Assembly (NCBI GenBank): GCA_000004985.1
Contig: GG738864.1
DNA length: 64,000 bases
DNA from: Naegleria gruberi
Taxonomy: Eukaryota
Reading direction: 5' to 3' (one strand)
This document shows, in pieces, positions 2-32,764 of this stretch (position 1 is its first letter; the number at the start of each line of letters is the position of its first letter). The position numbers were made by a program, and so were the translations under genes. The notes beneath the pieces are model-generated. The model did no database searches. It saw nothing but the letters and a program-made list of their open reading frames with translations, and was not told the origin of the DNA.

Positions 2-2062
2 TGTTATGTTTCCGGAAGTAAGCCAATCATTACAGATAATACCTCACTTGTTACAACATTTAATGAGATTGTTAATAATTGGAGTCTTTCAACCCCAATA
101 CTGTGCTATCTACTTGGCCATAAATATTCAAAAGCAGGTCTAAGCTTTGATTGTCTAAAGGGTAGTGATACAAAGATATTACAATTAATCAGACAATACA
201 ATGCCAAACACTCAGAACAAGGTATTGAAGTGTTTCTAGCAATGATGACGAAAACAGAGAGTGGGTATGGAGATCCATATAATATTGAGTGGGAAGAGAC
301 TTCTTACAGCATTACTCATATGATTGATGAGAGTGGTCATATTCATTCAAACACCAATAACTTGGATTTGGACGAAAGTGATTTCTTTCCAGAAGATGCT
401 CTAGAAGAATTAGAACAATCTGGTGAAGAAGTAAGTTCTATCTGTACATTAATTTATAACTCAGTTCGTTGTCATCTCTAGATTGAAGAACATACAGGTA
501 ATGAAGGAGCTACTGCTTCAAGATGGTACAAATCAGCATGCTTAATCATTTATCCAAAGAGATTCAAATATTTAATGGCATTGAAGTTTGGTGGTTCAAG
601 TGCTTATAAAGGACTCCAGGATTTATGGGAAGCTTATCTGAAAGATGCTTCATTAAGAAATCAACTCGTTCAATATTTGAAGAGTTTTATAGAAAAAACG
701 TATAGTCGTTATATGGTTGGCAATTTTAGTATTGGTAATTACATTTCCGAATTAAGAGAATTGAGTTTGGCAAAATTATTACTTTCTCAATATAAATGTT
801 CGAAAGAAGATGTTATTCAAATGGTATCAGCATTTGGAATTGACCCACTCAGAAACGAAATCATTGGATACTATAAGAACATGGATTTTAATTCCCTTGC
901 TGAATTTTTGGATGTATTTCCTGATAATAATTTGGCTCAATTATTAATTCCTACTCTTCTAACCAATAATAGATACTCTTATAGAAGTAATTCATCAACA
1001 GATTATGAGACTGCATTAACCGCTTGCTCAAAGTATAATATTACCTTGGACTCTGAAACAAAAAAGAAAATTCTATCCGATAGTTCATATAACACTACTC
1101 AACTCTATCAATTGGGATGCAAACTAAAAGATATTTATTGTTTGATGGAAGTATTGAAAAGATCATTCTCTATCAGCTTGAATTCAAACAGATTCTATTT
1201 AAATTCTAATACTGTAACACCTCCTACCACATTACCTGTTAAAATAATTGTAAATTGTATTCAAATTATTGGACTTGATAATTGTAGAGCCACATTAGAA
1301 CAATTAATTTCAGAATTTGTGAATAGAAATGGAATTTCATCATCTCTAGATAGTATTCAATTATTTAGTGATAATACAGATAATATTCACGTATCAGATT
1401 TCATTTCAAAGTCAATTGTTAAGAATATTAAGGCAAGAAATGATTTAAAATCTCAAAACATTGATATTTATGAAAAGATATTTATTCAATTCTACAAGTG
1501 TGGAGCAATTGATGAGATGAGTGATCTTGCTAAATTATTAATTTCTAATCCTAATTCTCAATATATTCACTCAACAATTAATCCACTTGTTTTGAAAATT
1601 TCAAGAGCCAATATTAATGTTATCAATAGTGAACCCCTTCAATTTTTAATTAGAAAATGTATTCAATACTATGATTCAGTAATTACAAACCAATCAAATG
1701 TACCAACACCTAATAATTGGGTCATTAATGCTACTTTGGGTTGTACATGTGGTAATTGTAAATCATGTAATGAATTCCTCAAATCAGCCACACAAGTTAC
1801 TCATTCGATAAAGGCATCAGCCAGCGTTAGAGATCATGTCGAGAGGGAGTCACGTAAAGTTACAATTGATTTGCAATATGATACACTCAGACAAGGTTCT
1901 CCACACACTCTCGTATTGACAAAGATTAGAAAATCACAAGAATTGAAACAGAGAGCATTACAAGAGTCCATTACTTCCAGAAATAATTTAACACCACTGG
2001 TGAGGAAAGCAGGAGCATCCACAAATGATCCACCTTCCAAGAAGCTTAAAAGTGAACATTAA
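2..2062 (+). CDS. Hypothetical protein, 5'-partial (continues upstream of window). Exon ..430, intron 431-481 (GTAAGT..CTCTAG, 51 nt, phase-preserving), exon 482-2062. Cys cluster CTCGNCKSC near C-terminus
   Basis: The 230..481 and 575..2062 ORFs share a frame and are separated only by an in-frame TAG lying inside a canonical 51-nt GT..AG intron. The frame stays open to position 2. No family recognised. Confidence 0.55.
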
Positions 2063-3648: not shown

Positions 3649-5178
3649 TTAAGGTAAGAACATGGATAAGAATTCATCCATATTTTCATCACGTTCTTGT
3701 TGCTTTGTTTCTTCGTCTTCATCTTGGAGAAATACGTTTTCAAAGGATCCAATCATGGAATCTTCTTGGTTTGTATCAATCATTGAAATCTCATCTAGTG
3801 GTGTTTGTTGCATTGGCACAGTATTGTGAGAAGGTTCTTGTTGGTAAGATTCAGAGATGAGAAAAGATGAAAAATCATAACTTGGAATATCACTGTTTGA
3901 GGAATGGGAAGAGACAGGAGTTCTTGAGACTGGTGAATAACTGTAGCTTGAAGATGCAGTTTCCCTTATTCTCATCTTGTTTGCCTTTTGTTGAGGAATT
4001 TTGATTGGTTGATGGTTACTAGCATATCGTTGTTTGAATTGTTGATAGTTAAAGGATTGAGAAAGTTGACTCAAATCTACACTATTCATATTTACAACTG
4101 ATTGAGTTTGCTGGGAACTGTTTGGTTCATGAACATTACTATTAGCATTGACTGCATTCAAACTTCCACCTCTTGGTGTTGACACTGATGCTCTTCTAAT
4201 ACTGGATCTTCTCTGTCTATGAACTGAATCTGAAGTACCACTTTGAGTATTGCTTCCTCCAACATTGAACATTGAAGTATTGCCATTGCTTCCTTCCAAT
4301 TCTAACAACTTGGTAAAGAAATCAAATTCAGCACTTGGTTGACCTCCAAATGATTGAACTCTTTGCAAATTATTGTGAGCATTATTGGGTGGAGGACTAA
4401 TCATTCCACTATTGTTACTAGTGTATGAGCTTCTTGGAGTTGATGAATTAGAATTTGAATTCAAATCCATCATCATTGAATCAGTCATTCCTCCATAACT
4501 GAAATTATTTGGATATGAGGATGAGATTCTTACAACCTTTGTTGGAGTATAGATACTATCATTACTATAACTATGATACATACTTTGAGCTGATGTATCA
4601 ATAAAGAGTGGATGAGAATCATCACCATTCAATTCTGATGTTGCGGTTGTTGCTGTTGTAACCGAATTGAGATTTTGTTGTTGAGGATTAGTATTATTAC
4701 TATGATACAATTGATTCATCGAATCAGAATGATGCAAACCTGAAACATTAAAGGTAGTTTGCAAGAGAGAAATACCAGATATTGTGTTTCTTCTTTTATG
4801 TGAATAATTGCTATTGGCACTCGAAGAATCATGATGAATGGCAGCAGCATCATATTGAGAGGTGGAGGAGGAGAGGAAATCATCATCGGTTGGAGTTACA
4901 ACTGAATGAGAGGATGAGTTCTTACGTTTCTTCCTATCATTCTTATCAGTCTTGAAGAAAAAGTAGTTGGCTTGAAATTCGGTATTGCTTCTGAATTGCT
5001 TGTTGACTTTGAGCAGTTTATCTCCTTTCAATTGAGTCTTGAGTTTCACCTCATCTGTTAGATCGACAATTGAGAATTTGCCATTACCATTCGAATCATT
5101 CGTTGATGCAGTTGATATTGTTGTGGCAGATGCAATTCCATTATTGTTGGTATTCAATGATGAAGAGGCTTGTTGCAT
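3649..5178 (-). CDS. Ser/Asn/Thr-rich low-complexity protein with acidic C-terminus, 509 aa ORF; function unknown, possibly a regulatory or transcription factor
   Basis: Long uninterrupted ORF with coding-like codon usage. Low-complexity S/N/T tracts, RRxS motifs, acidic tail DEDEETKQQERDENMDEF. No conserved domain recognised. Confidence 0.4.
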   Translation of the reverse strand: MQQASSSLNTNNNGIASATTISTASTNDSNGNGKFSIVDLTDEVKLKTQLKGDKLLKVNKQFRSNTEFQANYFFFKTDKNDRKKRKNSSSHSVVTPTDDDFLSSSTSQYDAAAIHHDSSSANSNYSHKRRNTISGISLLQTTFNVSGLHHSDSMNQLYHSNNTNPQQQNLNSVTTATTATSELNGDDSHPLFIDTSAQSMYHSYSNDSIYTPTKVVRISSSYPNNFSYGGMTDSMMMDLNSNSNSSTPRSSYTSNNSGMISPPPNNAHNNLQRVQSFGGQPSAEFDFFTKLLELEGSNGNTSMFNVGGSNTQSGTSDSVHRQRRSSIRRASVSTPRGGSLNAVNANSNVHEPNSSQQTQSVVNMNSVDLSQLSQSFNYQQFKQRYASNHQPIKIPQQKANKMRIRETASSSYSYSPVSRTPVSSHSSNSDIPSYDFSSFLISESYQQEPSHNTVPMQQTPLDEISMIDTNQEDSMIGSFENVFLQDEDEETKQQERDENMDEFLSMFLP

Positions 5179-6116: not shown

Positions 6117-7247
6117 TCACTTTGAATTTTCTGAAGATACTGTTGTTGGAGTACTGTTTTTGGCTGCATTCTTAGATGAATCGTCAAATTTAGTTCTAAG
6201 ATTTTTGTAAGCTCTTGCTGTCTTTTCTTCATTACTGACATAATTTTGTCCGACTCCAGATCCACCATCATTACCAATTTTAGTACCATCTCGTGAGTAA
6301 ACTCTGTATCTATTGTTTTGAACACCTCTAACTCTATTCTCCTCGATTTCTTTCATTTTAGAGGTTTGAGCTTCTCTTCTCACAAGAGAGGTCATTCCTT
6401 TGAAAACTAAATAAATTGCAAAAACGTAAGCCACGTAAGCCATCAATTTCATACCGAGAGCAATGGCTTTAGTTGGAGTCATTCCGTTCATCTTAATGTC
6501 GTAAACAAAACTGAAAATGACTGGTGATTTCAACAAGACTTTTTTAACAAGCTCATGTTGGTCTTTGAAATGAGTTTGAATTATAGTTTCTCTTTGTTTC
6601 ATTTCTTTTTCTTGTCTTCTCTCTGAATTATACTTATTCATAATACCAAGGAAAGTGGTATGTTCTGAATCAGCAAACCATGTCTTTTCACCCTTCTTAT
6701 ATTTTTCAATTCTTGTCAGGAAATCATCATCTGAAAATGGGAATACATCGAATGGATTGTAACGAGATCCACTACTAAATGGATCCTTTCCCCAAAATCC
6801 TCTTGGATCTGATTGTCCTGTTCCAAATGGTGCACTATTTGGATTGTTTGGATTTTGAACATTTCCTTGTTTAATTTGAGAATAGGCTGCATTAATTTCA
6901 GCCATCTTATCTTTAGCATCCTCTGTCTTGTTAAGATCTGGGTGAAATTTCTTACTCAACTTGATATAAGCCTTTCTGACAACATCTTCACTTGCTCCAA
7001 ATTGAACTCCTAAAACTTCATATGGATTTTTCGTGGCATTTTGAAAAAAGGATTGTGTATGAAAGGAACGACTTGTTCCGATATTTAATAAATCCAAATA
7101 ATTATTATTGCGTTTTAATAAATTACTATTATTGCTACTATTAATGTTCCAAAGAAATAAATTATTCAGTGATGATGACAAACGTAAATTGGAGGAGAAG
7201 GTGGCGAAAGTTTGTCTTCGAGAGTATCGGGAAATCATTCGAGACAT
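6117..7247 (-). CDS. J-domain (DnaJ/Hsp40-like) protein with an N-terminal mitochondrial-presequence-like region and one TM segment, 376 aa
   Basis: J-domain [51 protein letters not shown] with the HPD motif. Arg/Ser-rich N-terminus [17 protein letters not shown]. Hydrophobic segment [22 protein letters not shown]. Confidence 0.75.
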
Positions 7248-7554: not shown

Positions 7555-7803
7555 ATGCAAAACGACGCCGGTGTCCAAGTTGATTACTATCACCCAAGAA
7601 AGTGTACTGCCACTAAGAATTTGATCACTGCTAAGGATCACGCTTCCGTTCAAATCACTGTTGGTTTGGTTGATGAAAACGGTGTTTACACTGGTGAAAA
7701 TGCCACTGTTGCTTTGTGCGGTGATTTGAGAATGAAGGCTAAGTCTGATGGTGCTGTCAACAGACTCATGCTCGAACAAAAGATTATGAAGGATATCCAA
7801 TAA
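7555..7803 (+). CDS. RPS21: 40S ribosomal protein eS21, 82 aa
   Basis: MQNDAGVQVDYYHPRKCTATKNLITAKDHASVQITVGLVDENGVYTGENATVALCGDLR matches the eS21 family end to end. A possible 50-nt 5'UTR intron lies at 7502-7551 (GTAAGT..TAATAG). Confidence 0.9.
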   Translation: MQNDAGVQVDYYHPRKCTATKNLITAKDHASVQITVGLVDENGVYTGENATVALCGDLRMKAKSDGAVNRLMLEQKIMKDIQ

Positions 7804-7937: not shown

Positions 7938-10601
7938 ATGTCTCTAATTGGCCCAAAGGATTTATCGGACCAATGCAAAATTCATATCAGCAAGGATTAT
8001 AACTTGCAGATTGTTAGCATTGTCATTTGCTTTCTGAGTATTATAAGTAGTGTTTTTGTATTTGCAGGAGTGTTTTTGTATAGGAAGGAGACCAAATCGC
8101 CTCGGATGAACATTTTAGCGTATGTATTAATCTAATTCTTCTCATCAACAACTTTATCTGTTTTACAATTCTTGTTAAATTTCATTATTTCACCAATGTT
8201 CTCTTTCAACAACAATATAACATCATTACGATAGTATAATCAACATTTTCGGATTCATCTATTGTTTATGTATTGAAATTGAATCAATAATTATCACATT
8301 GTGTAGGTTTTCGCAAAATGTAATAATACTAATTAATTAATCAACATGATTGTACATCATCAACTTTGTTCCGAATTCAATTCATCAAAAATCATCATCA
8401 AATCTGAAATAATACAGTGGGAAATGTCACTTACATTTATCCTCTATGCCAAATTCAAGCCTTTGTTGCAAATAGCTCTTCATTGTGTCTGAACACATTT
8501 TCTCTGTGTTTGACATTCTTCCTCTTCTACACAGTGGTTGTTAATAATCAGTATAGGAAATTGAAATCCCTCTACTCTAAACTCATTATCATCTTTTTAG
8601 TGCTTTGTTTCCTTGTCTCTATTCCATTCTTTGTATTTATATTTCCTGTTCCAGTTCCAAACTCTTCGAGATATGCAGAGCTCTATGGAAAATCATCGAA
8701 ATTGTGGTGTGATTTTGCCAATACCCCTAATCATTATATTAATCAAACTGATGATGCATCAATGAGTAGTTTTATTAGTCAATCATCACCTAAATTGCTA
8801 ATGACATCAACAATATCAACAATGGGAGAATTTTCGAGGAAGAATGCAACAGTGGCGGATCCTGTGGAAACTTATTGGGCTATTTTCTTTGAGATTGGAT
8901 TCTTTTATGTTCCAAATACTCTAATTCTGTTTGGGTATGTTTCCTATTTCATGACATGAATTAATATTTGGAAATTATAGAAATGTTCTCTTGTTTTTAG
9001 TGATTATTGTGAAAATTAGGAGGAATTCAACAATTCTTAAGAATCACCAACAGATGTTTTCATTGATGAGGGAGTCTTCTTCCAACACCTCTATTGTAGA
9101 TGATTCAGAGGTTTCTCAATCGGTTCCTATTAAAAATCCAAAGAGAGTTGGTTCTATGGCAAATATGAGTCCATCCAATAGGAGGAACACACCATCGGTT
9201 GGCTCTCTTGGAAATAATCTTTCATTTTCTAATGAATGTATTGATGAGGACAATCAGGAGGCAATAGATGAAGGAAGGCCATTACTGAATCCAAAAAAGT
9301 TTTTCACGAGTAATTCTTCTTCTTTAAATCTACTGGCAAAGAAGGGATCTTCAAATTCATTGGTTATTCCAAAAAGTGGCCCAAAGCCAAACTCAGTCAC
9401 ACAACCTTTGGAGGCATCTCTTCCTAGTACTTTTTCCTTCTTTATGTTTGGAAGTAATATCAAATATTCCACGTTAACACAGAGAGATATTGATGAATAT
9501 ATTCAATTTTTACATTCTCAATCTAGAACAGCCTTGTATTATATTGCCGTATTGACATTTAATTGGATTGTATGGATTGTTTCAAGGTTATGTTGGGAAT
9601 TTACACAATGTCAACAATCTGAGAGTCAATCTATTATCATTTTCGTTCTTTTATCGATAGCAGAACAATGTAGTGGACCTAGAATGAGTTCCATTCTGCT
9701 ATCTATTATTTTTGGTATTAGTGAGGATACAGTTTCACCATCAACACTTTTTGACATGTTCCAAGATGTAACATGTCTCAGATATTTTACGACATATTGT
9801 TCTGAGAGAGATTCAACAGTTTCTAACAAAGAACCACAAGAAGAAAAACCATTACCTATCGAATATGATAATTTGGTTTTCTTTTGGTTTGATATTTATC
9901 AACTCAAAGAGCTAATTATGAAGGAAGAGGAGACAGAGCAAGAATTGAGAAAGAAGAAAATATCTGCAAAGGTTCAAGATATTTGTGATCTCTACTTCTC
10001 TGAAACATCACAATTTAAAATCAATTCTGACATTGTTACGAATAAGGAGAAGAACTTCTTGAGGACAACATGTATTAATTATATTAAGGGAGGTGCTCAT
10101 GACGAATCTGATGACGAATATTCAGAGAGTAGTGATGTTGAAGGAGATTCAGCCTCAACTGTATCAGGAGCTCATGAAGGAGTTCCTAAAGAAGATTTGG
10201 TTCTTCTCAACACTTTGAAACAACCTTTAAAATCATCACTTAAAATTATGAATGATTTATTATCAGAATTTAAAACTAGCCCAGCTTTTGATGAACTTAT
10301 TAATATTTTGAGAATGAAAGCTGTTTCGCAAAGAAGAAGCTTATTCAAAGACATTATCTCCAAATTGGGAAGGTTATTTATTAACTGCTTTGGAATGTGT
10401 CAAGTGTTCTTTTTGTCCAGTAGACATGAAAGTGAAGTTGAAGGATATGAAACAGTTACAGATATTGAAAATAAGCATGTAGATCATGTTGATGTACAAA
10501 TCAAGGACTTGTGGTCCAAAGAATATTCGCAAGATGTTTTCGAATTCCTCGAAAGACTAAAGAATTTGAAATTGGATAATAGAAAGATTTGGGTAATTTA
10601 G
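7938..10601 (+). CDS. Seven-TM receptor-like protein with a C-terminal RGS domain (GPCR-RGS fusion). Proposed exons 7938-8119, 8476-8934 (alternative acceptor 8418), 8981-10601; intron 8935-8980 (GTATGT..TATAG, 46 nt)
   Basis: Seven hydrophobic helices (IVSIVICFLSIISSVFVFAGVFLY; FSLCLTFFLFYTVVV; LIIIFLVLCFLVSIPFFVFIF; YWAIFFEIGFFYVPNTLILFG+NVLLFLVIIV; TALYYIAVLTFNWIVWIV; IIIFVLLSIAEQ...ILLSIIFGI). They are followed by an RGS-like region (LRYFTTYCSERDS...NLVFFWFDIYQLKEL...AKVQDICDLYFSETSQFKINSDIV). The 8119 to 8476 junction is the only phase-consistent join found for intron 1 and remains uncertain. Confidence 0.55.
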
Positions 10602-10685: not shown

Positions 10686-11761
10686 TTATTGTTTGAGTTC
10701 ATCAAAGTATGGATGTTTAAGGGCATCACTTGCACTTATTCTATTTGCAGGATTTATGACTAACATTCTTGATAGCAGATCCAATCCTTGGGAGTCTAAA
10801 GGTGTATTAATAAATTTTGATGCAAGCAAATTTACGTTCCATTTAGGGAATGTTGTTCTAAAGTTTGGTAATTGTGTTACAGCTCCATCAGAAGGTGTGC
10901 CTAATAATTGGAATACCTTAAATAAATGGTCAATTTCTGAATCGCTTGGGAATAATGGTTGTAATAAAACCAATTCAGCAAAGATACAACCAACTGTTTA
11001 AAGTAAATTAAAACAATAAACGAGTTCACTACTTACTTGACCATATATCTACTGAGGTTGAATATTTGTTTGCTCCCAATAAGAGTTCTGGGCATCTGTA
11101 CCACAAAGTAATGACTTCCTTAGTGAGTGTTCTGAGAGGAATATTGAATTCTCTGGCCAACCCAAAGTCTGCAAGTTTAATATTCCCCTGGGAATCTATC
11201 AGAATATTTTGTGGTTTGATATCTTTGAAGAGTTATAAAATAGGTTCAAAATGTGAAACAAACCTCTATGTAATACACGTCGTGCATGACAAAAAGCCAG
11301 AGCTTGTAACATCTGGAACATGTATTTCTTCACTAAAATTGGAGGGAAATATGTTTTAGTTTTTCTTTGTTGATCGATAAATACTTTAAGGTCACTATCT
11401 ACAAATTCAAATACTAAATTCAATTGATTGTTTTCGTGTATTACTTCAAAAAGTCTTTAGAATTTCAATACGAGAAATAGTTCAATAATTGAAACCTACC
11501 TTACAACACAAGGGTGACAAATATGTTTCAGCAAGGCAATTTCTCTCAATGTTGTGGATGGTACTCCTTCATCTTCCTTTTCTAATCTAATTCTCTTCAC
11601 TGCCACAACGTTATTATTTGTTAAATCTATGGCCTAAATGTATTTCAAGTTTAGATTAGATCAATAACAAGTAGAATCACAAAATACTGACTTTAAAAAC
11701 TACACCATATGTTCCTTCTCCAATCTTTTCTAACTTTTCATATTTGGCCAATTTACTTGAT
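10686..11761 (-). CDS. Cyclin-dependent kinase, Pho85/Cdk5-like (PSTTLRE variant of PSTAIRE). Exons (minus strand) 11761-11692, 11633-11500, 11454-11264, 11222-11037, 10993-10686; introns 58, 45, 41 and 43 nt. The start-codon exon is unresolved (candidate poly-Gln exon 11929-11844)
   Basis: Spliced translation: [18 protein letters not shown]|[45 protein letters not shown]|[27 protein letters not shown]...CHARRVLHR|[62 protein letters not shown]|IGCIFAEL...[21 protein letters not shown]...[10 protein letters not shown]. All junctions are phase-consistent. 5' splice sites are GTCAGT, GTAGGT, GTTTGT, GTAAGT. Confidence 0.8.
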
Positions 11762-14344: not shown

Positions 14345-17300
14345 TTAAGTATCTTCCTCCTTAACAGTGTAGAGGTGAGAATGTTTGTATACATGTCTAA
14401 GTTGTTCCTTAAGGAGATTGAATGGTTTTTGATGTTGTTCAATCTCAGAGTTGTGATTCATGCATTTTTCAATTAGATTCTTGCTGATATCTTGTAAGGT
14501 ATATCCAAATGATTCTCTATATACTCTAAAGAGTTTTGGAAGGATAATTATATTATTGGATTGAGAAGTAGAGTTGTTGAAATTGTTAATAATTTTGATG
14601 TTTTGTAGGAGGAATAATTCTGTTTCCTTTCTGACAAATGATTCATAGTTTTCTGGAGTAATGTATGGGAATAAAGTACAACAATTTCTCATTCTCATAT
14701 TCTTGAATTGTTGTGAGTTTGGAAGGATAGATATTTGAGATTTTTCATTCCACAATAGCTCACCATATCTGTACATTATAAATATCAATCTCAAATCAAC
14801 ATAATTAGAGTAGAAAGAAATAAATCGTGATCTTCTATCAAAAGATTTCATACCATTCCCATTCAAAACATTGATTGGAGGAGCTAACAATTTACTAGAG
14901 CCAACAATATTTTTCTGGTCGTGAGACATATCTGTAACAATACCATTAGGATAGCTCTTGTTTCCTCTCAAAATTCCATCACGAATGTCAGAAAGTGAAA
15001 ATATCAAGCCATCAACTTGATAAGCCATTCTATTATAGAAAATGAAAGTGGCATTATTTCCCACTAGTCTATACTTGCTGCTAGATCCCATTATCAATAA
15101 AGAATGATAGAATAGTGTTAAGAATAGGTTCAAAAAGAAACATCTGAATCTAACTCGTTCATTCTTTTCTTCATGAACATCCATAAGACTAGAAAGATCA
15201 ATTCTTGATAATTCATGGCAAAGAGGAAGTAACTGAGTTAGGTAAATGTGGTTTGTACACACAATTTTTCTAGAATGTTGGGATACAGTCTTGAAGAAAG
15301 TGGCATTTCGGAAATTATACTTTTCATATTTAGGGAATATTCCTTGATACATTTGTCTTAGGTATTCCATTAATTTGTAAAGAACTGCATTAGGTTCACA
15401 CCTATATGGAATGTTTTCAATCGATTCAGGATATGAAAATACGTCACTAATAGGTAAACTCATGTTAATAACTCGGATTGGGTTATCATTACTAAATCTA
15501 TACAAATAATAGCCATCAATAAATGATAGCCCATAGTTAACATGGTGAATAATGTTGGACTCAAGGAGAAGTTGATAGAATTCAACTGCTTGCTTTCTAC
15601 TTTCCATATTAATTACAACAAATGGTTGGCTGAGATCATTATTTTGGGTGTTGTTAAAATTCAAAAGCAAATCTATCGCCTCTTTAGATTCGAAACATTT
15701 TCTGTAAATCTTTCCTTTCAATAAATTATACAATGAAGTTGAATAATTACTTTGCTTTGGGTAACGAACTCTATCCAGTAGGGTAAGGTTATTCTTCAAA
15801 TAGGCTATTACAACTTGAATGTGTGAAACTAACTGATCAATATCGTGTGCCAATGGAAAGAATTTTTTAAGCTTGTTCAATACAATAATATCGTCCTTAT
15901 AGAGAAGAACCAATGAATTGATAGCAGAAAGTGGACCATCTACAATATTATTCTTAGGCTTCTTATCATTGGATGTAACTTGCTTGTACATATTAATCTT
16001 TGAAACCTCTTTCTTATTCAGGAATGATACATCATATTGATACTTTACATATTGGCCATAAATGGTTTGGTTATGAGCTGGTACAATATAAGGGGTTATT
16101 GATTTGGATTCAAACTGATTTTCAATAAAGTATTGAGAAATATATTCATCATATTCCTGTGATCTTTGAACTGATTGATCACTAATATTCTTTTCCTCAA
16201 TTAATTGGTTATTAAATTCGGTGGTATAATTAGAATACATATCCATATCATAACTAGGAATAACATTTCTTTCTATACATTTTCTTGCTTGTAAATTATT
16301 GTAAATAGAATTAACATCTACATTATAGAAATCTCTCAATACTTCAAATGAAATATTTGGATACTCATTACTCATTTTACCTTCTAATGATCTCAAAATT
16401 TCTCCCTGAGGAAGAACAGTTGTAGAGCCATTCTCGTTGAGAGTAAGCTTCATAGAGTTCATAATACTCTTAAGGATTTTTTCATTCTCTGCCACATTAT
16501 CAGAAGGTGTTGGGATTGGTGAAGTAGGTGATTTTTCTTGTTTCTTTTCGTGTGTCTTATTCTCCATTTCTTTCACTGGAAGAACTGATTCGATTTCATC
16601 TTCAACTTCAGAGTTAATAGTCAAAGAGAGCTGATCTAGCCTTTCATCACTCAGGTCTGTTATTTGTCTTGGATTATATGTTTCATCAAAATAGAGCTGG
16701 GAGGTAACTTGATTAGATACTTCCTCTTCATCATCTGAGTCATCAGAGTAATCGTCACAAGAGTCTTCTTCATCAGTAATCATACTTAAATCCCTATCAT
16801 CGTGTAAATAAATATCACCACTTTCCAAATCCCACAAATGTACTCCAAACAATCTAATGTGGAAACTTGGTTTATAGTTACCCAAAAATATATTGATAGC
16901 ATGTTGTTTCCACTCATCTTTAAAGTTACTACTATAATATCTTTTCATATTTGTCATTAAATCAGCCAAAACACCTCCTCTATTGTGAATATCAACACTA
17001 ACTGTTCTACTTCCACTGTATTGAATAGCAATATGGTCACTAACTTGTTCATACATTTGCATTAAAATTAAAATGAATTGACCATGGTGAACAAGATGAG
17101 GTGATTCAATAATTCCCAGTGAACATAATTGTTCTCCAAGAACATATTTGGCAATAATAAATTGAGCTACACCTGTTCTATCAAGACAATCAATACAATT
17201 AGTTCTTAAAACACCAGATTGTTCCTGTATCACTTTTCCATACTTGGATGTTGTGAAAAATTTACATTGTCTTACATGATTTTCTGCAATTGCATGGAGT

Positions 17301-19090
17301 TCATTCAATGCCTTTTCAGGTTTGTCTTTAATTGCATTCCTGAAATCAAATGGAACATATTCTATATGCTTCTTTTGTTTGAATGGTTCTTCATTTTTGT
17401 AAATATTCCTGTTAAGATATTCTATGCAAATCTTGAATTTTTCTCCCAATATTATTTCTCTTGGTTTTTTCTCGTGCTGTTTCACTAGATCCAGACACAT
17501 GATTGGAGAACCTTCGTATCTTTCGAATAGGTTATTGAAATGATGCATACTATCCAGATAGAGAGGATCAAATTTTGTAATAATAATATTAGGTTTTGAG
17601 AGTAGGTTTGATGTGGATGCTTTTGTTGTGGTAGTAGTAGTATTCTTTTGATCGTTTTCATCGACAGTGGTCGTGGTAGTGGTCATTGTTGTAGTGGTAG
17701 CAGTAGATTGAGACCAATATAGAGGAATACTTCCTCTCACTTGAACAAAGCTACTAAATGCACCTTGAGATTGATTATTGAATAAATGGTGATTTGCTTC
17801 ATAAACTATTTGCTCAATTTCAACATGATTGGCCACATGACCTCCATCTGAAATACCTCGTTTAAGGTATCTAGTACCAGCATAATATCGACTTCTCCTT
17901 GCAATAACTGTCAATACAATAGATATATTACTGTTACCTGTTTTAATTTGATTTTTCTGGAGTGTTTTGTTGAATTCTTCATGTTGAGAAGGTTTCATTA
18001 ATTCCTTTGAAGAGTTTCTTTTAACTGGCACTGGTTTGGTATAATCAGCAAGAGCCATTGAAACCTTGGATTGAATAAAGTGGCCATGAATGCATGGACA
18101 CATCCATTTAGACATTTTCGTCCTCTTCAATGGTTCAAGAAGATGTGAATTCCAAACAAACATATCACATGTTGTGTTTTTTGGTTCATCTCCATAAGTC
18201 ACTATTGGTGTAGAGTTTTGTTGCAATGTTTTTGTGAGATCATAGTTATAACTAAAGTAAAAATCCTGATTCAAATTAATATTATTAAATAATTCCTTAT
18301 ACTTGTCTTCGATTAACTGTTCTTGTTTTGAAAGGTTGTCATGCATAGATAATTTCACTAATTTAGTATCTTTAATTTCATAGACACTAGCATTACCAAT
18401 CATTCCAACTTTAAGTCTATCCGTTATCAAAACCAAATAATGATGAGATTTGAGTTCAATAAACCCCAAAATGCCATAAATATTATTAGTATGGAGTTTG
18501 ATATCTTGTTGAATACTCTTCATTGCAAATTTTATCATGTGCAATAGATCATTGATTTGTTTCAAGCTATACTCTCCAGCATCTTCATTTAAATAATTGA
18601 CAATGTCACAATCAGCTCCATTGGGTCTATCAATTTTTAACATTTTATACTTTGTTTTTGATCCATTGCATCCAACAAGATAAAATCTATTATATGCCTC
18701 GTATAATGTAAAGTTGCTATACTTTTCACCAAATGTAAAATCAATTTTACTATATTCACATTCAAATGATGAATTAAATTCCTGTTGAGGAATATCGTCT
18801 CCTCCCGTCTGAATATCCGTATCAGAATTGGTTGTGATGGGCTGAAATGATGAAATTGGAGGTTGAATTGGTGATGATGGTTCCACTACTTGTTCTTCAA
18901 CATTTCTCATTCGGGATTGATCTAATATTGGCGAATCATCATTGAATTCGTAGGTTGGTGATTTTTTGGATTTTTGATCACCATAGGGTGTGTTCTTTTG
19001 TGGGCTCGTATTTGAAGATGAAGGAACGAGCAACCTTTTGATGAACATTTTTTTTGTTAAAAAATCTTTTAAAGAAGCACTTAATATCAT
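14345..19090 (-). CDS. SAC-domain phosphoinositide phosphatase, very large (1581 aa) with long S/N-rich extensions
   Basis: Sac catalytic motif RTNCIDCLDRTG (CX5R) and upstream RYYAGTRYLKRGISDGGHVANHVEIEQIV. Single uninterrupted ORF. Confidence 0.75.
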   Translation of the reverse strand: MILSASLKDFLTKKMFIKRLLVPSSSNTSPQKNTPYGDQKSKKSPTYEFNDDSPILDQSRMRNVEEQVVEPSSPIQPPISSFQPITTNSDTDIQTGGDDIPQQEFNSSFECEYSKIDFTFGEKYSNFTLYEAYNRFYLVGCNGSKTKYKMLKIDRPNGADCDIVNYLNEDAGEYSLKQINDLLHMIKFAMKSIQQDIKLHTNNIYGILGFIELKSHHYLVLITDRLKVGMIGNASVYEIKDTKLVKLSMHDNLSKQEQLIEDKYKELFNNINLNQDFYFSYNYDLTKTLQQNSTPIVTYGDEPKNTTCDMFVWNSHLLEPLKRTKMSKWMCPCIHGHFIQSKVSMALADYTKPVPVKRNSSKELMKPSQHEEFNKTLQKNQIKTGNSNISIVLTVIARRSRYYAGTRYLKRGISDGGHVANHVEIEQIVYEANHHLFNNQSQGAFSSFVQVRGSIPLYWSQSTATTTTMTTTTTTVDENDQKNTTTTTTKASTSNLLSKPNIIITKFDPLYLDSMHHFNNLFERYEGSPIMCLDLVKQHEKKPREIILGEKFKICIEYLNRNIYKNEEPFKQKKHIEYVPFDFRNAIKDKPEKALNELHAIAENHVRQCKFFTTSKYGKVIQEQSGVLRTNCIDCLDRTGVAQFIIAKYVLGEQLCSLGIIESPHLVHHGQFILILMQMYEQVSDHIAIQYSGSRTVSVDIHNRGGVLADLMTNMKRYYSSNFKDEWKQHAINIFLGNYKPSFHIRLFGVHLWDLESGDIYLHDDRDLSMITDEEDSCDDYSDDSDDEEEVSNQVTSQLYFDETYNPRQITDLSDERLDQLSLTINSEVEDEIESVLPVKEMENKTHEKKQEKSPTSPIPTPSDNVAENEKILKSIMNSMKLTLNENGSTTVLPQGEILRSLEGKMSNEYPNISFEVLRDFYNVDVNSIYNNLQARKCIERNVIPSYDMDMYSNYTTEFNNQLIEEKNISDQSVQRSQEYDEYISQYFIENQFESKSITPYIVPAHNQTIYGQYVKYQYDVSFLNKKEVSKINMYKQVTSNDKKPKNNIVDGPLSAINSLVLLYKDDIIVLNKLKKFFPLAHDIDQLVSHIQVVIAYLKNNLTLLDRVRYPKQSNYSTSLYNLLKGKIYRKCFESKEAIDLLLNFNNTQNNDLSQPFVVINMESRKQAVEFYQLLLESNIIHHVNYGLSFIDGYYLYRFSNDNPIRVINMSLPISDVFSYPESIENIPYRCEPNAVLYKLMEYLRQMYQGIFPKYEKYNFRNATFFKTVSQHSRKIVCTNHIYLTQLLPLCHELSRIDLSSLMDVHEEKNERVRFRCFFLNLFLTLFYHSLLIMGSSSKYRLVGNNATFIFYNRMAYQVDGLIFSLSDIRDGILRGNKSYPNGIVTDMSHDQKNIVGSSKLLAPPINVLNGNGMKSFDRRSRFISFYSNYVDLRLIFIMYRYGELLWNEKSQISILPNSQQFKNMRMRNCCTLFPYITPENYESFVRKETELFLLQNIKIINNFNNSTSQSNNIIILPKLFRVYRESFGYTLQDISKNLIEKCMNHNSEIEQHQKPFNLLKEQLRHVYKHSHLYTVKEEDT

Positions 19091-25589: not shown

Positions 25590-27794
25590 TTATCTTCTTT
25601 TATAGTAACTGTTATTATTGCCACCACCATAGCTTGAGTGATAACCTCTTCTTGCACTGGTATTCACACAATCTCTCAAATACTTTGCAATAGATGAATT
25701 ATCATATAATGTACCTATTCCGACATAGTCAAAGTATTGTTTGAAAGATGAAACATTTTGAATCTTGAAAACTTCACGTTGTAACACATCTTCCAACAAT
25801 TCACCACTCTTTGTCTTTGGAGGACAGCCAAAGTTTGTATCGTACAATCTTCCAAATTCTTCCAAGGAGAGATCACTATATTCTTCAACAATGTTTCTCA
25901 AAAAGAAGACGTGGAACATGATCAATTTGCAGGAAACTTGGTTTGCTTCCCATGATTTGATACATCTTTCAGAGTCCATTTCGTTGAATCTAGCCAATCC
26001 AGGATGCATCTTGATAACCCACAATGCATTTCTAATTGAGGTTTCTTCAACAACAGAGGTCTTAATTGAGTTCCATGTTAATTTACTTGGACCCAGAACT
26101 GAAAGCTTTGGAAGGAATTCTCCAAGATTTGGACAGGAGCTCTTTAATCTAGCGCTTTCAGAGTTCTTGAATTGATTGACTTGATACTTTAAACGATCCA
26201 AAGCTTGTGGGAATTTTTCAATCAAGTAAATTAACCAACGATGGAAGTACATGTAACCGTAGAGAGCTTTGATTGAGGCATGAGTATTACCTTTCATAAT
26301 TTCAACAACCATAGTATTCATCAACTTGCACATCAATTCAATATAAATTGTTGCATTATCTAAGGATTCAGAGCTTGAAATTGAAGGATAAGCAATTTGA
26401 ATTTTCATCACTGACTGTTTCAAAATCTCAAAGTTACCATGCTTTCTGTTGATAAATACTGGGATCCAGTGAGAGAAACATCTTCCCCAGACACTCTTTC
26501 TGACATTCTCCTTATAGAAGGAAGTGTGAGAGAGAAGATCCAGAGGAGTTGAAATTGAGGCAATTGTGCCATCTTTCTTAGTTTCGAAAGATAGACCAAC
26601 ACCAAGTGTATCCTCATTAAATGTTTCCTTAGAGTGGAAACACACTAATTCTCTGGCTGTAGACAAGAATTTGTGTTCACACAAATCATAGAGATATTTG
26701 CTAGACTGTTCAACTCTCTTCAATTCAATAATATTAAGATAGCTGAGAGTGTGTAAAATCAATTCGTTAGGTAAGTCTTTGAGATGCTTCTTTGGTTCAG
26801 GAGTTTTCTTCAACATGCTTACAGCAATTAGGTTTTTGGAAGGTTGCGCAGGAGAAGCTGTTTCAATAATGGTTGATGATTCAACTGCAGACTTTTTCTT
26901 TTCCATCTTTTCTTGAACTTTCTTCAATCTGTTCAGTTTCTTTTTCTTGTTCTTTCCAATGTAGTTTGGATCCTTGGCTTCATCTTGAGATGGTTTTGGT
27001 TGTTCTTCCTTCTTGGCAACAACCTTAGTTGGATCAACATATTGAAAAGGAATATCCCAGGCATTTGTGTTGACTGGAACTGCTTTAGGTTCTGGTTTGG
27101 TTTCTACTGGTTTAGTTTCAGCTATTGTTTTAGGTTCTACAGGTTTAGTTTCAACTTTTGGTTCAACCGTCTTTGGAGTTTCTTTCTTTGGAACTGGCTT
27201 GACCACAGGTTTGTCTTTCTTTAGAACGACAGCTTTAACAGGTTGTGGAACATACTTTGAAGCAAGAATTTCTGAAACATTCCAATAAGGAGCACATGGA
27301 TATATGGTTCCCTTTGTTGGATTGTGTCCAGTTGTGGAATTAACATATTTCCTGGAAGCGTCAATATCACTCTGTATATATCTTTCCTGTCTATCCTCTT
27401 CTTCCAATAAGAATGATTGTAATTGCAACAAGATTGACAAACAAGAGTAACTTGTACTCCAACCCATGTATGGAATATCGTCAAAATAGTGAGCTTTCAA
27501 CATGTCCAAGCAGATCCACCCACCAAAAACGTGAGAGTGATGCAATTGAGTAAGGCAAGCAATTTGTGGAGGTTCATTAGGATAATCCTTTGGAAACTTG
27601 ATATCCAATACAACAATAATTCCATGATACTTGGATGTCTTTGGAGCTAACACAGTTGCATACCAATGAAACATGTCTCCTTGAAATGGCTCAGCATAGA
27701 CAGTTTCTAATGGATTCGATTGAATTTCCTTCAAGTCTCTCGTTATTCTTTTGAGAGCAGAAGAAGGGAGAGCCTTCGAGCTGCTGCTATTCAT
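25590..27794 (-). CDS. Ubiquitin-conjugating (UBC/E2) domain protein with a long Pro/Lys/Thr/Glu-rich linker and an F-box-like motif, 734 aa
   Basis: N-terminal UBC fold with catalytic Cys context HSHVFGGWICLDMLK. Repeats KPVEPK/KPVETK. F-box-like LPNELILHTLSYLNIIELKRVEQSSKYLYDLC. Confidence 0.55.
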   Translation of the reverse strand: MNSSSSKALPSSALKRITRDLKEIQSNPLETVYAEPFQGDMFHWYATVLAPKTSKYHGIIVVLDIKFPKDYPNEPPQIACLTQLHHSHVFGGWICLDMLKAHYFDDIPYMGWSTSYSCLSILLQLQSFLLEEEDRQERYIQSDIDASRKYVNSTTGHNPTKGTIYPCAPYWNVSEILASKYVPQPVKAVVLKKDKPVVKPVPKKETPKTVEPKVETKPVEPKTIAETKPVETKPEPKAVPVNTNAWDIPFQYVDPTKVVAKKEEQPKPSQDEAKDPNYIGKNKKKKLNRLKKVQEKMEKKKSAVESSTIIETASPAQPSKNLIAVSMLKKTPEPKKHLKDLPNELILHTLSYLNIIELKRVEQSSKYLYDLCEHKFLSTARELVCFHSKETFNEDTLGVGLSFETKKDGTIASISTPLDLLSHTSFYKENVRKSVWGRCFSHWIPVFINRKHGNFEILKQSVMKIQIAYPSISSSESLDNATIYIELMCKLMNTMVVEIMKGNTHASIKALYGYMYFHRWLIYLIEKFPQALDRLKYQVNQFKNSESARLKSSCPNLGEFLPKLSVLGPSKLTWNSIKTSVVEETSIRNALWVIKMHPGLARFNEMDSERCIKSWEANQVSCKLIMFHVFFLRNIVEEYSDLSLEEFGRLYDTNFGCPPKTKSGELLEDVLQREVFKIQNVSSFKQYFDYVGIGTLYDNSSIAKYLRDCVNTSARRGYHSSYGGGNNNSYYKRR

Positions 27795-31267: not shown

Positions 31268-32764
31268 ATGTCAATATTTTCACCACAAAACGATAATGAT
31301 GAAGAATTTCTCATTCAAGATTTGATCAAGGCACATTTAGAAGGAAAATCATCACAAAAAACACTTGAAAAATTCCTAAATGATCCCTTCTATGGGATGT
31401 GTGATCGGATCAGAAGGTGGATTAAACAAGATGAATCGAGAGGATGTTCTGTTGCTTCGGAAGAAGTGATCAATGTGGATTTACTTAGAAAATTGGATGA
31501 TAATATCAAGTATGATATTATGGAATTTATTCCAACCTTTTCGAAATGGAAACAATTCAATCTGGAAAGGGAATATTTGAAAAGGATTAATTTTCCAAAA
31601 GAAATAATTCATTCCAATGAATATTATCTGGATAGCAACTTGGTAACCTTTCACAAAATGAGATTAATTTCCAAATCTTTCAATAGACGAATGATGATTA
31701 AAATATTGAATATTGAAGAAGTTTTCATTGATATGGAATTACCTAATGCAAGAGAACTAATCGAAGGTTTCAATATATTATTCGCTAAACAGACTAAATA
31801 TGTTAAGGAAAATAGAATATTACCAGATTCAACTTTGTATCTGTATTCAGATAAGACAGTTCCTGATCCTTTAGAAGCTTTGAAAAAGAGTGTTAAGAAG
31901 GTTAAGAAGAAAGCATCCTTGTTCGATGATGAGGATGAGGATGAGATGTTTCCTGTTGGAACGAGTAGCTCAATATTTGATGATTCATCTGAGGATGATT
32001 TCCTTCCGAAAGCATCTCATTCTCAAAAACCAATTGCAACAACCCATTATTCTTCCCTATTTGGTGATGAGGAAGATGACATTTCTGATTTCTCAGACTT
32101 TCTTAAAAAGAATAATCAATCCACAAGTCCTCTTGCTTCTAAAAATGATGTCAGAGCTCCATTCAAAAACAATAGAAGATCATTATCACCAAGAAGAGTC
32201 TCACCAGAAGTGTACTCCAATTTCTGTTACCCAACAGAGTTGAGGCGCCCAGATACTGTATCAAAGCCATCATCACATTCTTCATTCAGTCTCACTCAAG
32301 AAAATTCGACCATTACTCACTTGATTATTAGTGGAAGACTACCACTTGATTTGTTTCAGTTTTCTAATTTGAGAGCTCTTACTTTACTTCAAAGTTCGAC
32401 TTGTGAAATACCTAAAACTGTTAAACTTTTTACAATTTCCAATGAAAGAGATCTCCATGGAGGTTCATTATCTTCATTGGAAATGATCAAACATTTGATA
32501 ACAAAGAGATGTATTGGAGCTAATGGAATTCAAGCTATGTTGAAATATGGCACTAAATTCGGGTCATTATTCTCCTCTTCCACACAACTAATGGAAAATA
32601 TACTCTCTGAAACAACTGATCAGAGTATTTTGGATTACTTGTTTGTTGAGTTGGGAATTCCTATTGAGCTAATCGATTGTAGATCCAAACAACCAGCTTA
32701 TCAATATTTAGTATATTTATGTAATAAGGTGAGTTTTATTTGTTCTATTCCAATACCTAATTGA
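31268..32764 (+). CDS. Hypothetical protein with acidic/Ser-rich centre and leucine-rich C-terminus, 498 aa as read through. A possible extra 3' exon at 32837-33046 via intron 32729-32836 (GTGAGT..CCATAG)
   Basis: Long ORF with no recognised domain. The alternative 3' exon is phase-consistent and matches the 32840..33046 ORF frame. Unresolved. Confidence 0.4.
   Translation: MSIFSPQNDNDEEFLIQDLIKAHLEGKSSQKTLEKFLNDPFYGMCDRIRRWIKQDESRGCSVASEEVINVDLLRKLDDNIKYDIMEFIPTFSKWKQFNLEREYLKRINFPKEIIHSNEYYLDSNLVTFHKMRLISKSFNRRMMIKILNIEEVFIDMELPNARELIEGFNILFAKQTKYVKENRILPDSTLYLYSDKTVPDPLEALKKSVKKVKKKASLFDDEDEDEMFPVGTSSSIFDDSSEDDFLPKASHSQKPIATTHYSSLFGDEEDDISDFSDFLKKNNQSTSPLASKNDVRAPFKNNRRSLSPRRVSPEVYSNFCYPTELRRPDTVSKPSSHSSFSLTQENSTITHLIISGRLPLDLFQFSNLRALTLLQSSTCEIPKTVKLFTISNERDLHGGSLSSLEMIKHLITKRCIGANGIQAMLKYGTKFGSLFSSSTQLMENILSETTDQSILDYLFVELGIPIELIDCRSKQPAYQYLVYLCNKVSFICSIPIPN

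What the first reader, a model, noticed from the sequence alone, without database searches (positions are those of the whole stretch)
7938..10601. 7TM receptor fused to an RGS domain (GPCR-RGS, AtRGS1 / fungal class VI type)
Seven predicted TM helices spread over three exons are followed by a recognisable RGS box. Such self-regulating receptor-GAP fusions are restricted to plants, some fungi and some protists. They are candidate sugar or nutrient sensors acting directly on G-alpha. The exon 1 to exon 2 junction could not be fixed unambiguously (phase-consistent acceptor at 8476; the nearer AG at 8418 is out of phase). A micro-exon or alternative splicing is possible.
Basis: partly seen in the sequence, partly recalled or inferred. 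Interest (0 to 1): 0.65.

Follow-up and report, generated by a model that had tools for sequence, protein, structure and literature searches.

The report
Naegleria seven-helix receptor with hidden RGS domain
This is a real four-exon gene of a Naegleria-type amoeba that joins a seven-helix membrane receptor to a divergent RGS domain, a design already documented in this genus, so it is a new member of a known class rather than a surprise.

Summary
The exon model was wrong. There are four exons, not three: 7938-8119, 8235-8302, 8418-8934 and 8981-10601, giving 795 aa. With it, the "out of phase" acceptor at 8418 is in phase and 8476 is not used. The N. lovaniensis orthologue (65% identity, same gene order) has introns at the same three positions.

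The seven-helix part has GPCR-like topology but only weak similarity to rhodopsin-type receptors.

GAP activity is unproven. Counterparts of RGS4 Asn88 and Asn128 exist here but vary across the family, and Asp163, Ser164 and Arg167 are not kept.

7TM-RGS proteins are already described in Naegleria fowleri (28 genes, Bosch 2022), and the N. fowleri orthologue is auto-named "RGS domain-containing protein". Modest interest.

The parts
7938..8119 (+). Exon 1: start codon, short extracellular N-terminus with conserved Cys13, TM1 (aa 23-48), first intracellular loop, start of TM2
   Evidence: First ATG after an in-frame stop. Donor GTATGT at 8120. Aligns with the N. lovaniensis orthologue.
8120..8234 (+). 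Intron 1 (115 nt, phase 2), GTATGT...TAG
   Evidence: The N. lovaniensis gene has an intron at the same position.
8235..8302 (+).
   Evidence: It restores the reading frame. The peptide is present in P0002, P0004, P0006 and P0010. The DNA is conserved against N. lovaniensis while the flanks are not.
8303..8417 (+). Intron 2 (115 nt, phase 1), GTAGGT...CAG
   Evidence: Same splice position in N. lovaniensis: TTGT|gtatgt ... acag|TGGGAAATGTC.
8418..8934 (+). Exon 3: end of TM2, TM3 (aa 94-125, begins at Cys94), TM4 (139-161), long second extracellular loop with Cys181 and three N-glycosylation sequons, first part of TM5
8935..8980 (+). Intron 3 (46 nt, phase 2), GTATGT...TAG
   Evidence: Same position in N. 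lovaniensis.
8981..10601 (+). Exon 4: rest of TM5, third intracellular loop, TM6, TM7, RGS domain, tail, stop TAG 10599-10601
   Evidence: P0001 (99% identical, Logan assembly) is this ORF.
9018..9476 (+). Third intracellular loop (aa 269-421), Ser/Asn-rich, poorly conserved, predicted disordered
   Evidence: Alignment A1. pLDDT 25-33 in the orthologue model.
9477..9719 (+). Conserved cytoplasmic extension of TM6 (DIDEYIQFLHSQSRT), TM6 (aa 440-461), third extracellular loop with invariant Cys466, TM7 (aa 473-502, CSGPR motif)
   Evidence: Invariant columns D425, Y429, F432, L433, Q436, R438, C466, G488, P489 and R490. Helices in the model.
9741..10310 (+). RGS-fold domain (aa 510-699), starting about 8 residues after TM7
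9813..9860 (+). Insert 1 in the alpha3-alpha4 loop of the RGS domain (aa 534-549), variable in length across the family
   Evidence: pLDDT below 50 at model residues 44-54. Gapped columns in A1.
10089..10187 (+). Insert 2 (aa 626-658), acidic and Ser-rich, between alpha6 and alpha7 of the RGS domain
   Evidence: pLDDT about 31 at model residues 135-160. Variable length across the family. Removing it together with insert 1 restores the Pfam RGS hit.
10311..10412 (+). Best-conserved motif of the family (VLRMKAVSxxRSLY[KR]D; R700, K702, R708, S709, D713 invariant in A1), followed by a hydrophobic Cys-containing segment (NCFGMCQVFF)
   Evidence: Invariant columns. Cys clusters at this place in the other members. 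Hydropathy 1.28, similar to TM7. A role in lipid anchoring is inference only.
10413..10598 (+). C-terminal tail (aa 734-795) with a conserved Y/F-x-Y/F-[IV]-x-x-x-K motif near the end
   Evidence: Alignment A1, columns 1183-1200.

Best explanation
One four-exon gene of a Naegleria-type heterolobosean amoeba encodes a 795-aa membrane protein.

Anatomy (shown):
- N-terminus outside, then seven membrane helices with GPCR-like topology.
- A long disordered third intracellular loop.
- About 8 residues after TM7, a divergent RGS-fold domain carrying two disordered inserts.
- After that, a highly conserved basic helix and a Cys-rich hydrophobic patch.

Mechanism (inferred): it belongs to the 7TM-RGS class already described in Naegleria, plants and Trichomonas. 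The RGS domain, held against the inner face of the membrane, most likely binds activated G-alpha and probably speeds GTP hydrolysis. The state of the seven-helix bundle, set by an unknown extracellular cue, would control that access.

Shown here: gene structure, architecture, RGS fold and family membership. Inferred: G-alpha binding, GAP activity, ligand control.
For: Gene model:
- Canonical GT..AG at all three introns and an open 795-codon frame.
- Full-length collinearity with N. lovaniensis C9374_008307 at 65% identity and 99% coverage.
- The same three intron positions and the same neighbours, DnaJ(-), RPS21(+), gene(+), kinase(-).

RGS domain:
- 10/10 insert-deleted cores hit PF00615 as top family, E 3.6e-6 to 5.5e-3, five of them above the gathering score.
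- 11 of 13 PDB hits of the core profile are RGS-domain proteins.
- hhalign against an R4 RGS profile aligns 118 columns across the entire box, E 0.013.
- UniRef names the N. fowleri orthologue an RGS domain protein.

7TM part:
- Seven long helices in the model, with a beta-hairpin in the second extracellular loop.
- Five segments with hydropathy above 1.9, plus TM6 at 1.58 and TM7 at 1.21.
- Lys/Arg-rich first and second intracellular loops.
- Four conserved cysteines, all on the predicted outer side (13, 94, 181, 466).
- Glycosylation sequons in the extracellular loops.
- Weak in-register matches of TM5-TM6 to aminergic receptors.

Context: N. fowleri has 13 G-alpha subunits and 28 7TM-RGS proteins. 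GAP activity was shown for the RGS domains of three of them (PMC9283941).
Against: - Native sequences do not reach any RGS model. There is no PF00615 hit, no RGS hit in the PDB, and the native domain profile finds only 13 family members among 1.84 billion representatives.
- The closest folds are SNX13 and Axin, whose RGS domains are not typical GAPs.
- In the alignment to RGS4, the Asn88 and Asn128 counterparts are N553 and N604 in this protein. Across the family these positions read N/S/D/L/I and N/G/Q/H/P/S.
- In the same alignment Asp163 falls in a gap or on a variable column, Ser164 becomes Leu, and Arg167 becomes Glu or varies.
- The most conserved residues of the family lie outside the classical G-alpha contact set.
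- Pfam 7tm_1 does not hit the window protein.
- No cDNA, expression or biochemical data exist for this gene.
Confidence: 0.55

Rival explanations
1. Same gene and same architecture, but the RGS-fold domain is an RGS-homology module without GAP activity, as in Axin, SNX14, GRK2 or mammalian RhoGEFs. It would serve as a docking surface for G-alpha without catalysis, for another partner, or for the receptor's own intracellular face. The seven-helix part would then act as an ordinary receptor or as an anchor.
For: - The alpha4 motif [DN]-L-[LV]-F-F-W-F-D has the SNX13/RGS22 spacing, one residue longer than the canonical E-N-x-x-F-W.
- The Asp163, Ser164 and Arg167 counterparts are absent or variable, and the Asn88 and Asn128 counterparts vary across the family.
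- The strongest conservation lies in alpha6 (SNxERNxIRT) and in the post-RGS helix.
- SNX14 binds G-alpha-s without GAP activity, according to PMC8864675.
Against: - Within Naegleria itself (window, N. lovaniensis, N. fowleri) both Asn counterparts are kept.
- The other Naegleria 7TM-RGS domains that were tested are GAPs using the canonical interface.
- Residue mapping rests on weak sequence alignments (E about 0.01), not on a structural superposition.
Confidence: 0.33
2. The seven helices are only a membrane anchor and not a ligand-sensing receptor. They would place an RGS-type domain at a particular membrane, as the N-terminal anchor does for SNX13/14/25.
For: - No significant match of the 7TM part to any receptor family for the window protein.
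- No relatives outside the family were found with the 7TM profile.
- DRY, CWxP and NPxxY motifs are absent, as seen directly in the sequence.
Against: - Strong conservation of extracellular features: four cysteines and the YPxCQIQAF and WCDF motifs.
- Strong conservation of the cytoplasmic extension of TM6.
- In-register weak matches of TM5-TM6 to aminergic receptors.
- The PROSITE family-1 profile name on the orthologues.
Confidence: 0.1
3. Two separate genes: the exon at 7938 belongs to another transcript, and the RGS protein starts further downstream.
For: No cDNA is available. The public N. fowleri model (P0138) is itself inconsistent, since it skips TM2-TM4.
Against: - Only 134 nt separate the RPS21 stop from ATG 7938.
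- All junctions are canonical and in frame.
- Five independent homologues are collinear from the N-terminal QCK motif to the C-terminus.
- Intron positions are shared with N. lovaniensis.
Confidence: 0.03

Closest known systems
Naegleria fowleri 7TM RGS proteins (28 genes; Bosch, Jeck and Siderovski, J Biol Chem 2022, PMC9283941)
   Same: Same genus-level lineage and same architecture: seven helices followed by a C-terminal RGS domain. The cellular context is also the same, with 13 G-alpha subunits, some of them self-activating. The N. fowleri orthologue of this gene (FDP41_000262) is auto-named 'RGS domain-containing protein'.
   Different: - Nf 7TM RGS1-4, the four members the paper illustrates and cloned, have large extracellular regions with EGF-like, lectin-type and GPS motifs. 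This protein has a 22-residue N-terminus and none of these.
- Its RGS domain carries two inserts and is invisible to Pfam RGS on the native sequence.
- Whether it is among the 28 could not be checked.
- The public N. fowleri model lacks TM2-TM4.
Arabidopsis AtRGS1 (plant 7TM-RGS)
   Same: Seven helices plus a cytoplasmic C-terminal RGS box in one chain. In the proposed logic, the receptor controls a GAP acting on self-activating G-alpha (as described in PMC9283941 and PMC3971589).
   Different: - No sequence comparison with AtRGS1 was made here.
- From my own knowledge, the linker between TM7 and the RGS box is much longer in AtRGS1.
- A glucose-related role cannot be transferred.
- GAP activity is proven for AtRGS1 and untested here.
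SNX13 / SNX25 RGS domains and the Axin RGS-homology domain
   Different: Sequence identity is only 14-15%. There are no PXA/PX/PXC or Axin DIX/beta-catenin modules. Here the domain is fused directly to TM7 of a seven-helix protein.
Rhodopsin-type (class A) GPCRs
   Same: - N-out, C-in topology.
- A Cys at the top of TM3 paired in position with a Cys in the second extracellular loop, and a predicted hairpin in that loop.
- A Pro in TM5 (FFYVPN) and a Trp in TM6, which align in register with the alpha1B adrenergic and 5-HT1E receptors.
- The PROSITE family-1 name on the orthologues.
   Different: - E-values are only 0.03-0.7.
- Pfam 7tm_1 does not hit the window protein.
- No DRY, CWxP or NPxxY motifs; TM7 has CSGPR instead.

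Membership tests
7TM-RGS proteins (AtRGS1 / Naegleria / Trichomonas type) | Seven transmembrane helices in the N-terminal part | tested here: met
   Seven long helices at the expected places in the orthologue model. Hydropathy peaks are 2.77, 2.08, 1.91, 3.19, 2.38, 1.58 and 1.21. Positive-inside loops and conserved outer cysteines. This holds only with the corrected four-exon model.
7TM-RGS proteins (AtRGS1 / Naegleria / Trichomonas type) | C-terminal RGS box (Pfam PF00615 or the RGS fold) | tested here: met
7TM-RGS proteins (AtRGS1 / Naegleria / Trichomonas type) | Both parts in one transcript and one polypeptide | tested here: met
   The evidence is comparative only. The spliced frame is open, five homologues are collinear, and intron positions and gene order are shared with N. 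lovaniensis. No cDNA was available.
7TM-RGS proteins (AtRGS1 / Naegleria / Trichomonas type) | GAP activity on G-alpha, or conservation of the G-alpha contact residues (RGS4 Glu87/Asn88, Asn128, Asp163/Ser164/Arg167) | tested here: inconclusive
   N553 and N604 align with Asn88 and Asn128 but vary across the family. The Asp163, Ser164 and Arg167 counterparts are not kept. The alignments are weak (E about 0.01). Activity itself cannot be tested with these tools.
7TM-RGS proteins (AtRGS1 / Naegleria / Trichomonas type) | Sequence homology of the 7TM part to AtRGS1, to fungal class VI (GprK) receptors or to the characterised Nf 7TM RGS1-4 | not tested
The 7TM profile search found only members of this family.
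Rhodopsin-type class A GPCR (Pfam 7tm_1) | Significant match to the 7tm_1 profile | tested here: not met
   No hit for the window protein, either native or with the third intracellular loop removed. One family member hits at E 2.9e-4. PDB profile hits are the alpha1B adrenergic receptor at E 0.029 and 5-HT1E at E 0.7. UniRef's family-1 name on the orthologues is a source annotation.
Rhodopsin-type class A GPCR (Pfam 7tm_1) | Signature motifs: DRY at the end of TM3, CWxP in TM6, NPxxY in TM7 | tested here: not met
   Read directly from the sequence and the family alignment. TM3 ends in FLFYTVVV, TM6 has FNWIVWI and TM7 has CSGPRMSSILLSII.
Rhodopsin-type class A GPCR (Pfam 7tm_1) | Conserved Cys pair between the top of TM3 and the second extracellular loop | tested here: met
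   C94 (YPLCQ) and C181 (LWCDF) are invariant in the family. The disulfide bond itself is inferred.
Non-GAP RGS-homology domains (Axin, SNX13/14/25 type) | RGS fold with a diverged G-alpha contact surface | tested here: inconclusive

The most novel reading that the evidence does not exclude
This small family has 13 representative clusters in 1.84 billion proteins; the only named members are from Naegleria. It may be a rhodopsin-like receptor lineage in which an RGS-fold domain was welded directly onto TM7, in the position of helix 8, and then lost the classical GAP surface. The domain, the invariant post-RGS helix (VLRMKAVSxxRSLY[KR]D) and the conserved cytoplasmic extension of TM6 would then form a built-in transducer. 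Such a transducer would bind G-alpha, or another partner, in a non-catalytic and receptor-state-dependent way. That would be a signalling mode distinct from both GPCR-as-exchange-factor and AtRGS1-type receptor-GAP.
Probability: 0.2. Interest if true: 0.55.

Novelty: new member of a known kind. Interest (0 to 1): 0.3.

Why it matters
Naegleria is unusual in having both self-activating and exchange-limited G-alpha subunits together with dozens of 7TM-RGS proteins (PMC9283941). Its receptors and their ligands are essentially unknown, and N. fowleri is a lethal pathogen.

This gene adds a subfamily that standard domain searches miss, because two disordered inserts hide the RGS box. Its orthologues are described inconsistently in public records:
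- The N. fowleri model lacks TM2-TM4 and is named only as an RGS protein.
- The N. lovaniensis models are named only as GPCR-profile proteins.

Counts of 7TM-RGS genes based on Pfam-type models plus helix prediction may therefore be underestimates. Whether this class-A-like subfamily is a GAP or a non-catalytic RGS-homology protein bears on how receptor-GAP signalling diversified. The result is useful for annotation and for choosing biochemical targets, but it does not change the current picture.

Tried and rejected
1. It is in frame but deletes TM2 and the conserved start of TM3, and it disagrees with every homologue.
2. Donor at 8320 (GTAATA) for exon 2. It is phase 0 and incompatible with the 8418 acceptor. 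Donor 8303 (GTAGGT) fits and matches N. lovaniensis.
3. Pfam on native proteins gave no RGS hit.
4. PDB profile searches with the native full-length and native C-terminal alignments gave no RGS hits, only chance coiled-coil or acidic-stretch matches and weak 5-HT1E matches.
5. An exhaustive profile search with the native C-terminal domain found only 13 family members and no bridge to canonical RGS proteins.
7. hhalign of the native alignment against RGS4 aligned only a 23-residue stretch.
8. A 7TM-only profile search of the 5.8-billion-protein set found no relatives outside the family. The candidate cap even lost known full-length members.
10. Pfam on 7TM cores with the third intracellular loop removed gave no 7tm_1 hit.
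11. Bacterial readings such as operons or prokaryotic ORFs were set aside at once. The window has spliced eukaryotic genes and Naegleria orthologues.
Full report
**Origin of the window.** The window is AT-rich (about 33% G+C) and carries spliced eukaryotic genes. The predicted product of the finding has its best named relative in Naegleria lovaniensis: hypothetical protein C9374_008307, 817 aa, 65% identity over 99% of the query. The neighbouring RPS21 gene (7555-7803) and DnaJ gene (6117-7247, minus strand) recur in the same order and orientation next to the N. lovaniensis orthologue, followed by a protein kinase gene on the minus strand, as in the window. Exact copies of window proteins were found only in assemblies of one run labelled as a metagenome (ERR1078381). 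The source is therefore a Naegleria-type heterolobosean whose species I cannot name.

**Gene structure.** The ATG at 7938 is the first start after an in-frame stop, 134 nt downstream of RPS21. Exon 1 ends at 8119 before GTATGT, with two bases carried over. Reading the intervening sequence shows a short exon at 8235-8302. It is preceded by TAG and followed by GTAGGT, and it encodes IINIFGFIYCLCIEIESIIITL, a hydrophobic helix.

With it the chain is:
- exon 1, 7938-8119, phase 2;
- exon 2, 8235-8302, phase 1;
- exon 3, 8418-8934, phase 2;
- exon 4, 8981-10601.

All junctions are GT..AG, and the product is 795 aa. The N. lovaniensis protein reads ...LNILGVINIFGFIYCLCIEVESIIITLLGNVTYIYPLCQIQAF..., and three environmental homologues also contain this segment. 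Mapping P0002 back on its genomic locus shows introns at exactly these three positions (TTGT|gtatgt ... acag|TGGGAAATGTC), plus a fourth 49-nt intron between TM6 and TM7 that the window lacks. A DNA alignment shows exon 2 conserved, with mostly third-position changes, between introns that differ in sequence and length: 115 and 115 nt in the window against 78 and 55 nt.

**The seven-helix part.** Hydropathy gives five strong segments and two weaker ones, TM6 at 1.58 and TM7 at 1.21. The AlphaFold model of the N. lovaniensis orthologue has seven long helices at these places and a beta-hairpin in the second extracellular loop. Confidence in the bundle is low, with pLDDT about 55-65 there and a mean of 51.

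The topology is receptor-like:
- The first and second intracellular loops are rich in Lys/Arg (0.40 and 0.31 per residue), while the first and third extracellular loops have none.
- Four family-conserved cysteines (13, 94, 181, 466) all lie on the predicted outer side. C94 at the top of TM3 and C181 in the second extracellular loop sit in the classical GPCR positions.
- Glycosylation sequons lie in the first and second extracellular loops.

**The RGS domain.** On native sequences the claim fails every sequence test:
- no PF00615 hit at E<=10 for the window protein or six homologues;
- no RGS protein among PDB hits of the native profiles;
- only 13 family members, all below 1e-30, in an exhaustive profile search of 1.84 billion representatives.

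- then RGS22, RGS7, a second RGS4 entry (1ezy) and RGS9.

The RhoGEF rgRGS domains follow at ranks 11 and 12, after one unrelated channel chain. The independent orthologue model gives the same list. Foldseek was much less sensitive, with only SNX13 at E 0.24.

The model shows two low-confidence segments that are also length-variable in the family. One lies in the alpha3-alpha4 loop (aa 534-549) and one is an acidic stretch between alpha6 and alpha7 (aa 626-658). When low-occupancy columns and the acidic insert are removed, all ten cores tested hit PF00615 as their best Pfam family, with E from 3.6e-6 to 5.5e-3. Five are above the gathering score. The window core scores 24.8 bits against a cut-off of 23.9 and covers profile positions 5-116 of 117. 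The core profile then finds RGS22 (3e-5), SNX13 (6e-3), RGS12, RGS14, RGS10, SNX25 and Axin in the PDB, so 11 of its 13 hits are RGS-domain proteins. It also aligns over the entire RGS box with a profile of vertebrate R4 RGS proteins (118 columns, E 0.013). UniRef names the N. fowleri orthologue "RGS domain-containing protein". The RGS domain is therefore real, and it was hidden by inserts.

**Is it a GAP?** The rat RGS4 sequence was checked against PDB entry 1EZT and numbered from 1AGR. The contact residues of the RGS4-Gi-alpha1 complex are cited from my own knowledge of that structure. The alignments place them as follows:
- N553 falls opposite Asn88. The family, like SNX13 and RGS22, has one extra residue before the F-W of alpha4.
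- N604 falls opposite Asn128.
- Asp163 falls in a gap or on a variable column, Ser164 falls on Leu, and Arg167 falls on Glu685.

Across the family the Asn88 column reads N, S, D, L or I, and the Asn128 column reads N, G, Q, H, P or S. The Asp163 and Arg167 columns are variable. The residues the family conserves best lie elsewhere: FFWFD in alpha4, Y-x-S-E at the end of alpha5, SNxERNxIRT in alpha6, and above all the helix after alpha9, VLRMKAVSxxRSLY[KR]D. In the Naegleria species themselves both asparagines are kept. These alignments are weak, and I could not superpose coordinates, so GAP competence remains open.

**Other anatomy.** The RGS domain begins about 8 residues after TM7, so it must sit directly under the bundle. 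The cytoplasmic extension of TM6 (D425, Y429, F432, L433, Q436, R438) is invariant. The third intracellular loop (about 150 aa) is disordered and variable. After the conserved post-RGS helix every member has a Cys-containing hydrophobic patch (NCFGMC here, and CSICCSC, CAQCC or CFHICCC in others), as hydrophobic as TM7. Lipid anchoring of the far end of the RGS domain is a reasonable inference, but it is untested.

**Most likely mechanism.** Bosch et al. (PMC9283941) report that N. fowleri has 13 G-alpha subunits, some of them self-activating, and 28 seven-helix RGS proteins. The RGS domains of three of these accelerate GTP hydrolysis through the canonical interface. The simplest reading is that this gene is a further, divergent member of that class. 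It would be a membrane protein whose RGS domain engages activated G-alpha at the membrane, under control of the seven-helix bundle.

I give about 0.9 to the architecture and about 0.5 to actual GAP activity. The main rival, at about 0.33, is a non-catalytic RGS-homology role of the Axin/SNX type. SNX14, for example, binds G-alpha-s without GAP activity according to PMC8864675. The two-gene reading is very unlikely.

**Comparison with what is known, and novelty.** 7TM-RGS architectures are known in plants, many protists, chytrids, filastereans and ichthyosporeans (PMC3971589), and specifically in Naegleria (PMC9283941). The orthologues are already in public databases with partial automatic names. 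The following points are new but modest:
- the correct four-exon model for this species;
- the RGS box of this subfamily is masked by two inserts;
- the seven-helix part is short-tailed and weakly rhodopsin-like, whereas the four N. fowleri members illustrated by Bosch et al. are adhesion-like with EGF or GPS motifs;

I classify it as a new member of a known kind and score interest at 0.3.

Noticed in passing
P0138 (N. fowleri FDP41_000262, 710 aa), compared with window 8120-8700: The public N. fowleri gene model of the orthologue jumps from ...SPRLNILG straight to SAELYGKSSKLWCDF. It therefore lacks TM2, TM3 and TM4 and is probably mis-spliced. UniRef names it only as an RGS domain protein, while the N. 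lovaniensis orthologues are named only as GPCR family-1 profile proteins.
   Followed up: partly
L003 4629-4677 (N. lovaniensis), compared with window about 9597-9600: The N. lovaniensis orthologue has an extra 49-nt intron between TM6 and TM7 (RLCW|E|FIQCQ). The window gene lacks it, reading through in frame. This is an intron gain or loss between Naegleria species.
   Followed up: partly
P0002 and P0137 (N. lovaniensis C9374_008307 on a 12-kb contig, C9374_006233 on a 614-kb contig): Two 817-aa copies fall in one 90%-identity cluster in the same assembly. One sits on a small contig that repeats the DnaJ-RPS21-gene-kinase neighbourhood. This is either a recent duplication or an uncollapsed haplotype or assembly duplicate.
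   Followed up: no
window 10311-10412 (aa 700-733): The most conserved stretch of the entire family is not in the RGS box. It is the helix just after it, VLRMKAVSxxRSLY[KR]D, with invariant R-S, followed in every member by a Cys cluster. The function is unknown; a phosphorylation site and a palmitoylation site are guesses.
   Followed up: partly
window 6117-7247 (-), 7555-7803 (+), 10686-11500 (-): The neighbours are a DnaJ-domain protein, ribosomal protein S21e and a spliced CDK-like protein kinase. The same order and orientation occur in N. lovaniensis, so local gene order is conserved.
   Followed up: partly
window 25590-27794 (-): A single 734-aa ORF combines a ubiquitin-conjugating enzyme domain (aa 15-133) with an F-box (aa 338-374), an uncommon pairing of E2 and SCF-adaptor modules in one chain.
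   Followed up: no
window 14345-19090 (-): A 1581-aa ORF carries a SacI-homology phosphoinositide phosphatase domain, a DEP domain and DUF547. DEP domains often occur in G-protein signalling proteins.
   Followed up: no
window 44840-46672 (+): A serine carboxypeptidase S10 domain is followed by teneurin-type EGF-like repeats in one ORF.
   Followed up: no
window 575-2062 (+), 3649-5178 (-), 31268-32764 (+), 57934-60522 (+): Four long ORFs (495-862 aa) have no Pfam family at E<=0.001.
   Followed up: no
whole window, and L001/L002: Exact copies of window proteins (RPS21, the exon-3 ORF, and the exon-4 ORF at 99% identity) were found only in ENA and Logan assemblies of run ERR1078381 (PRJEB11402, labelled metagenome). 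None was found in a named Naegleria genome, so the source species is not identified.
   Followed up: partly
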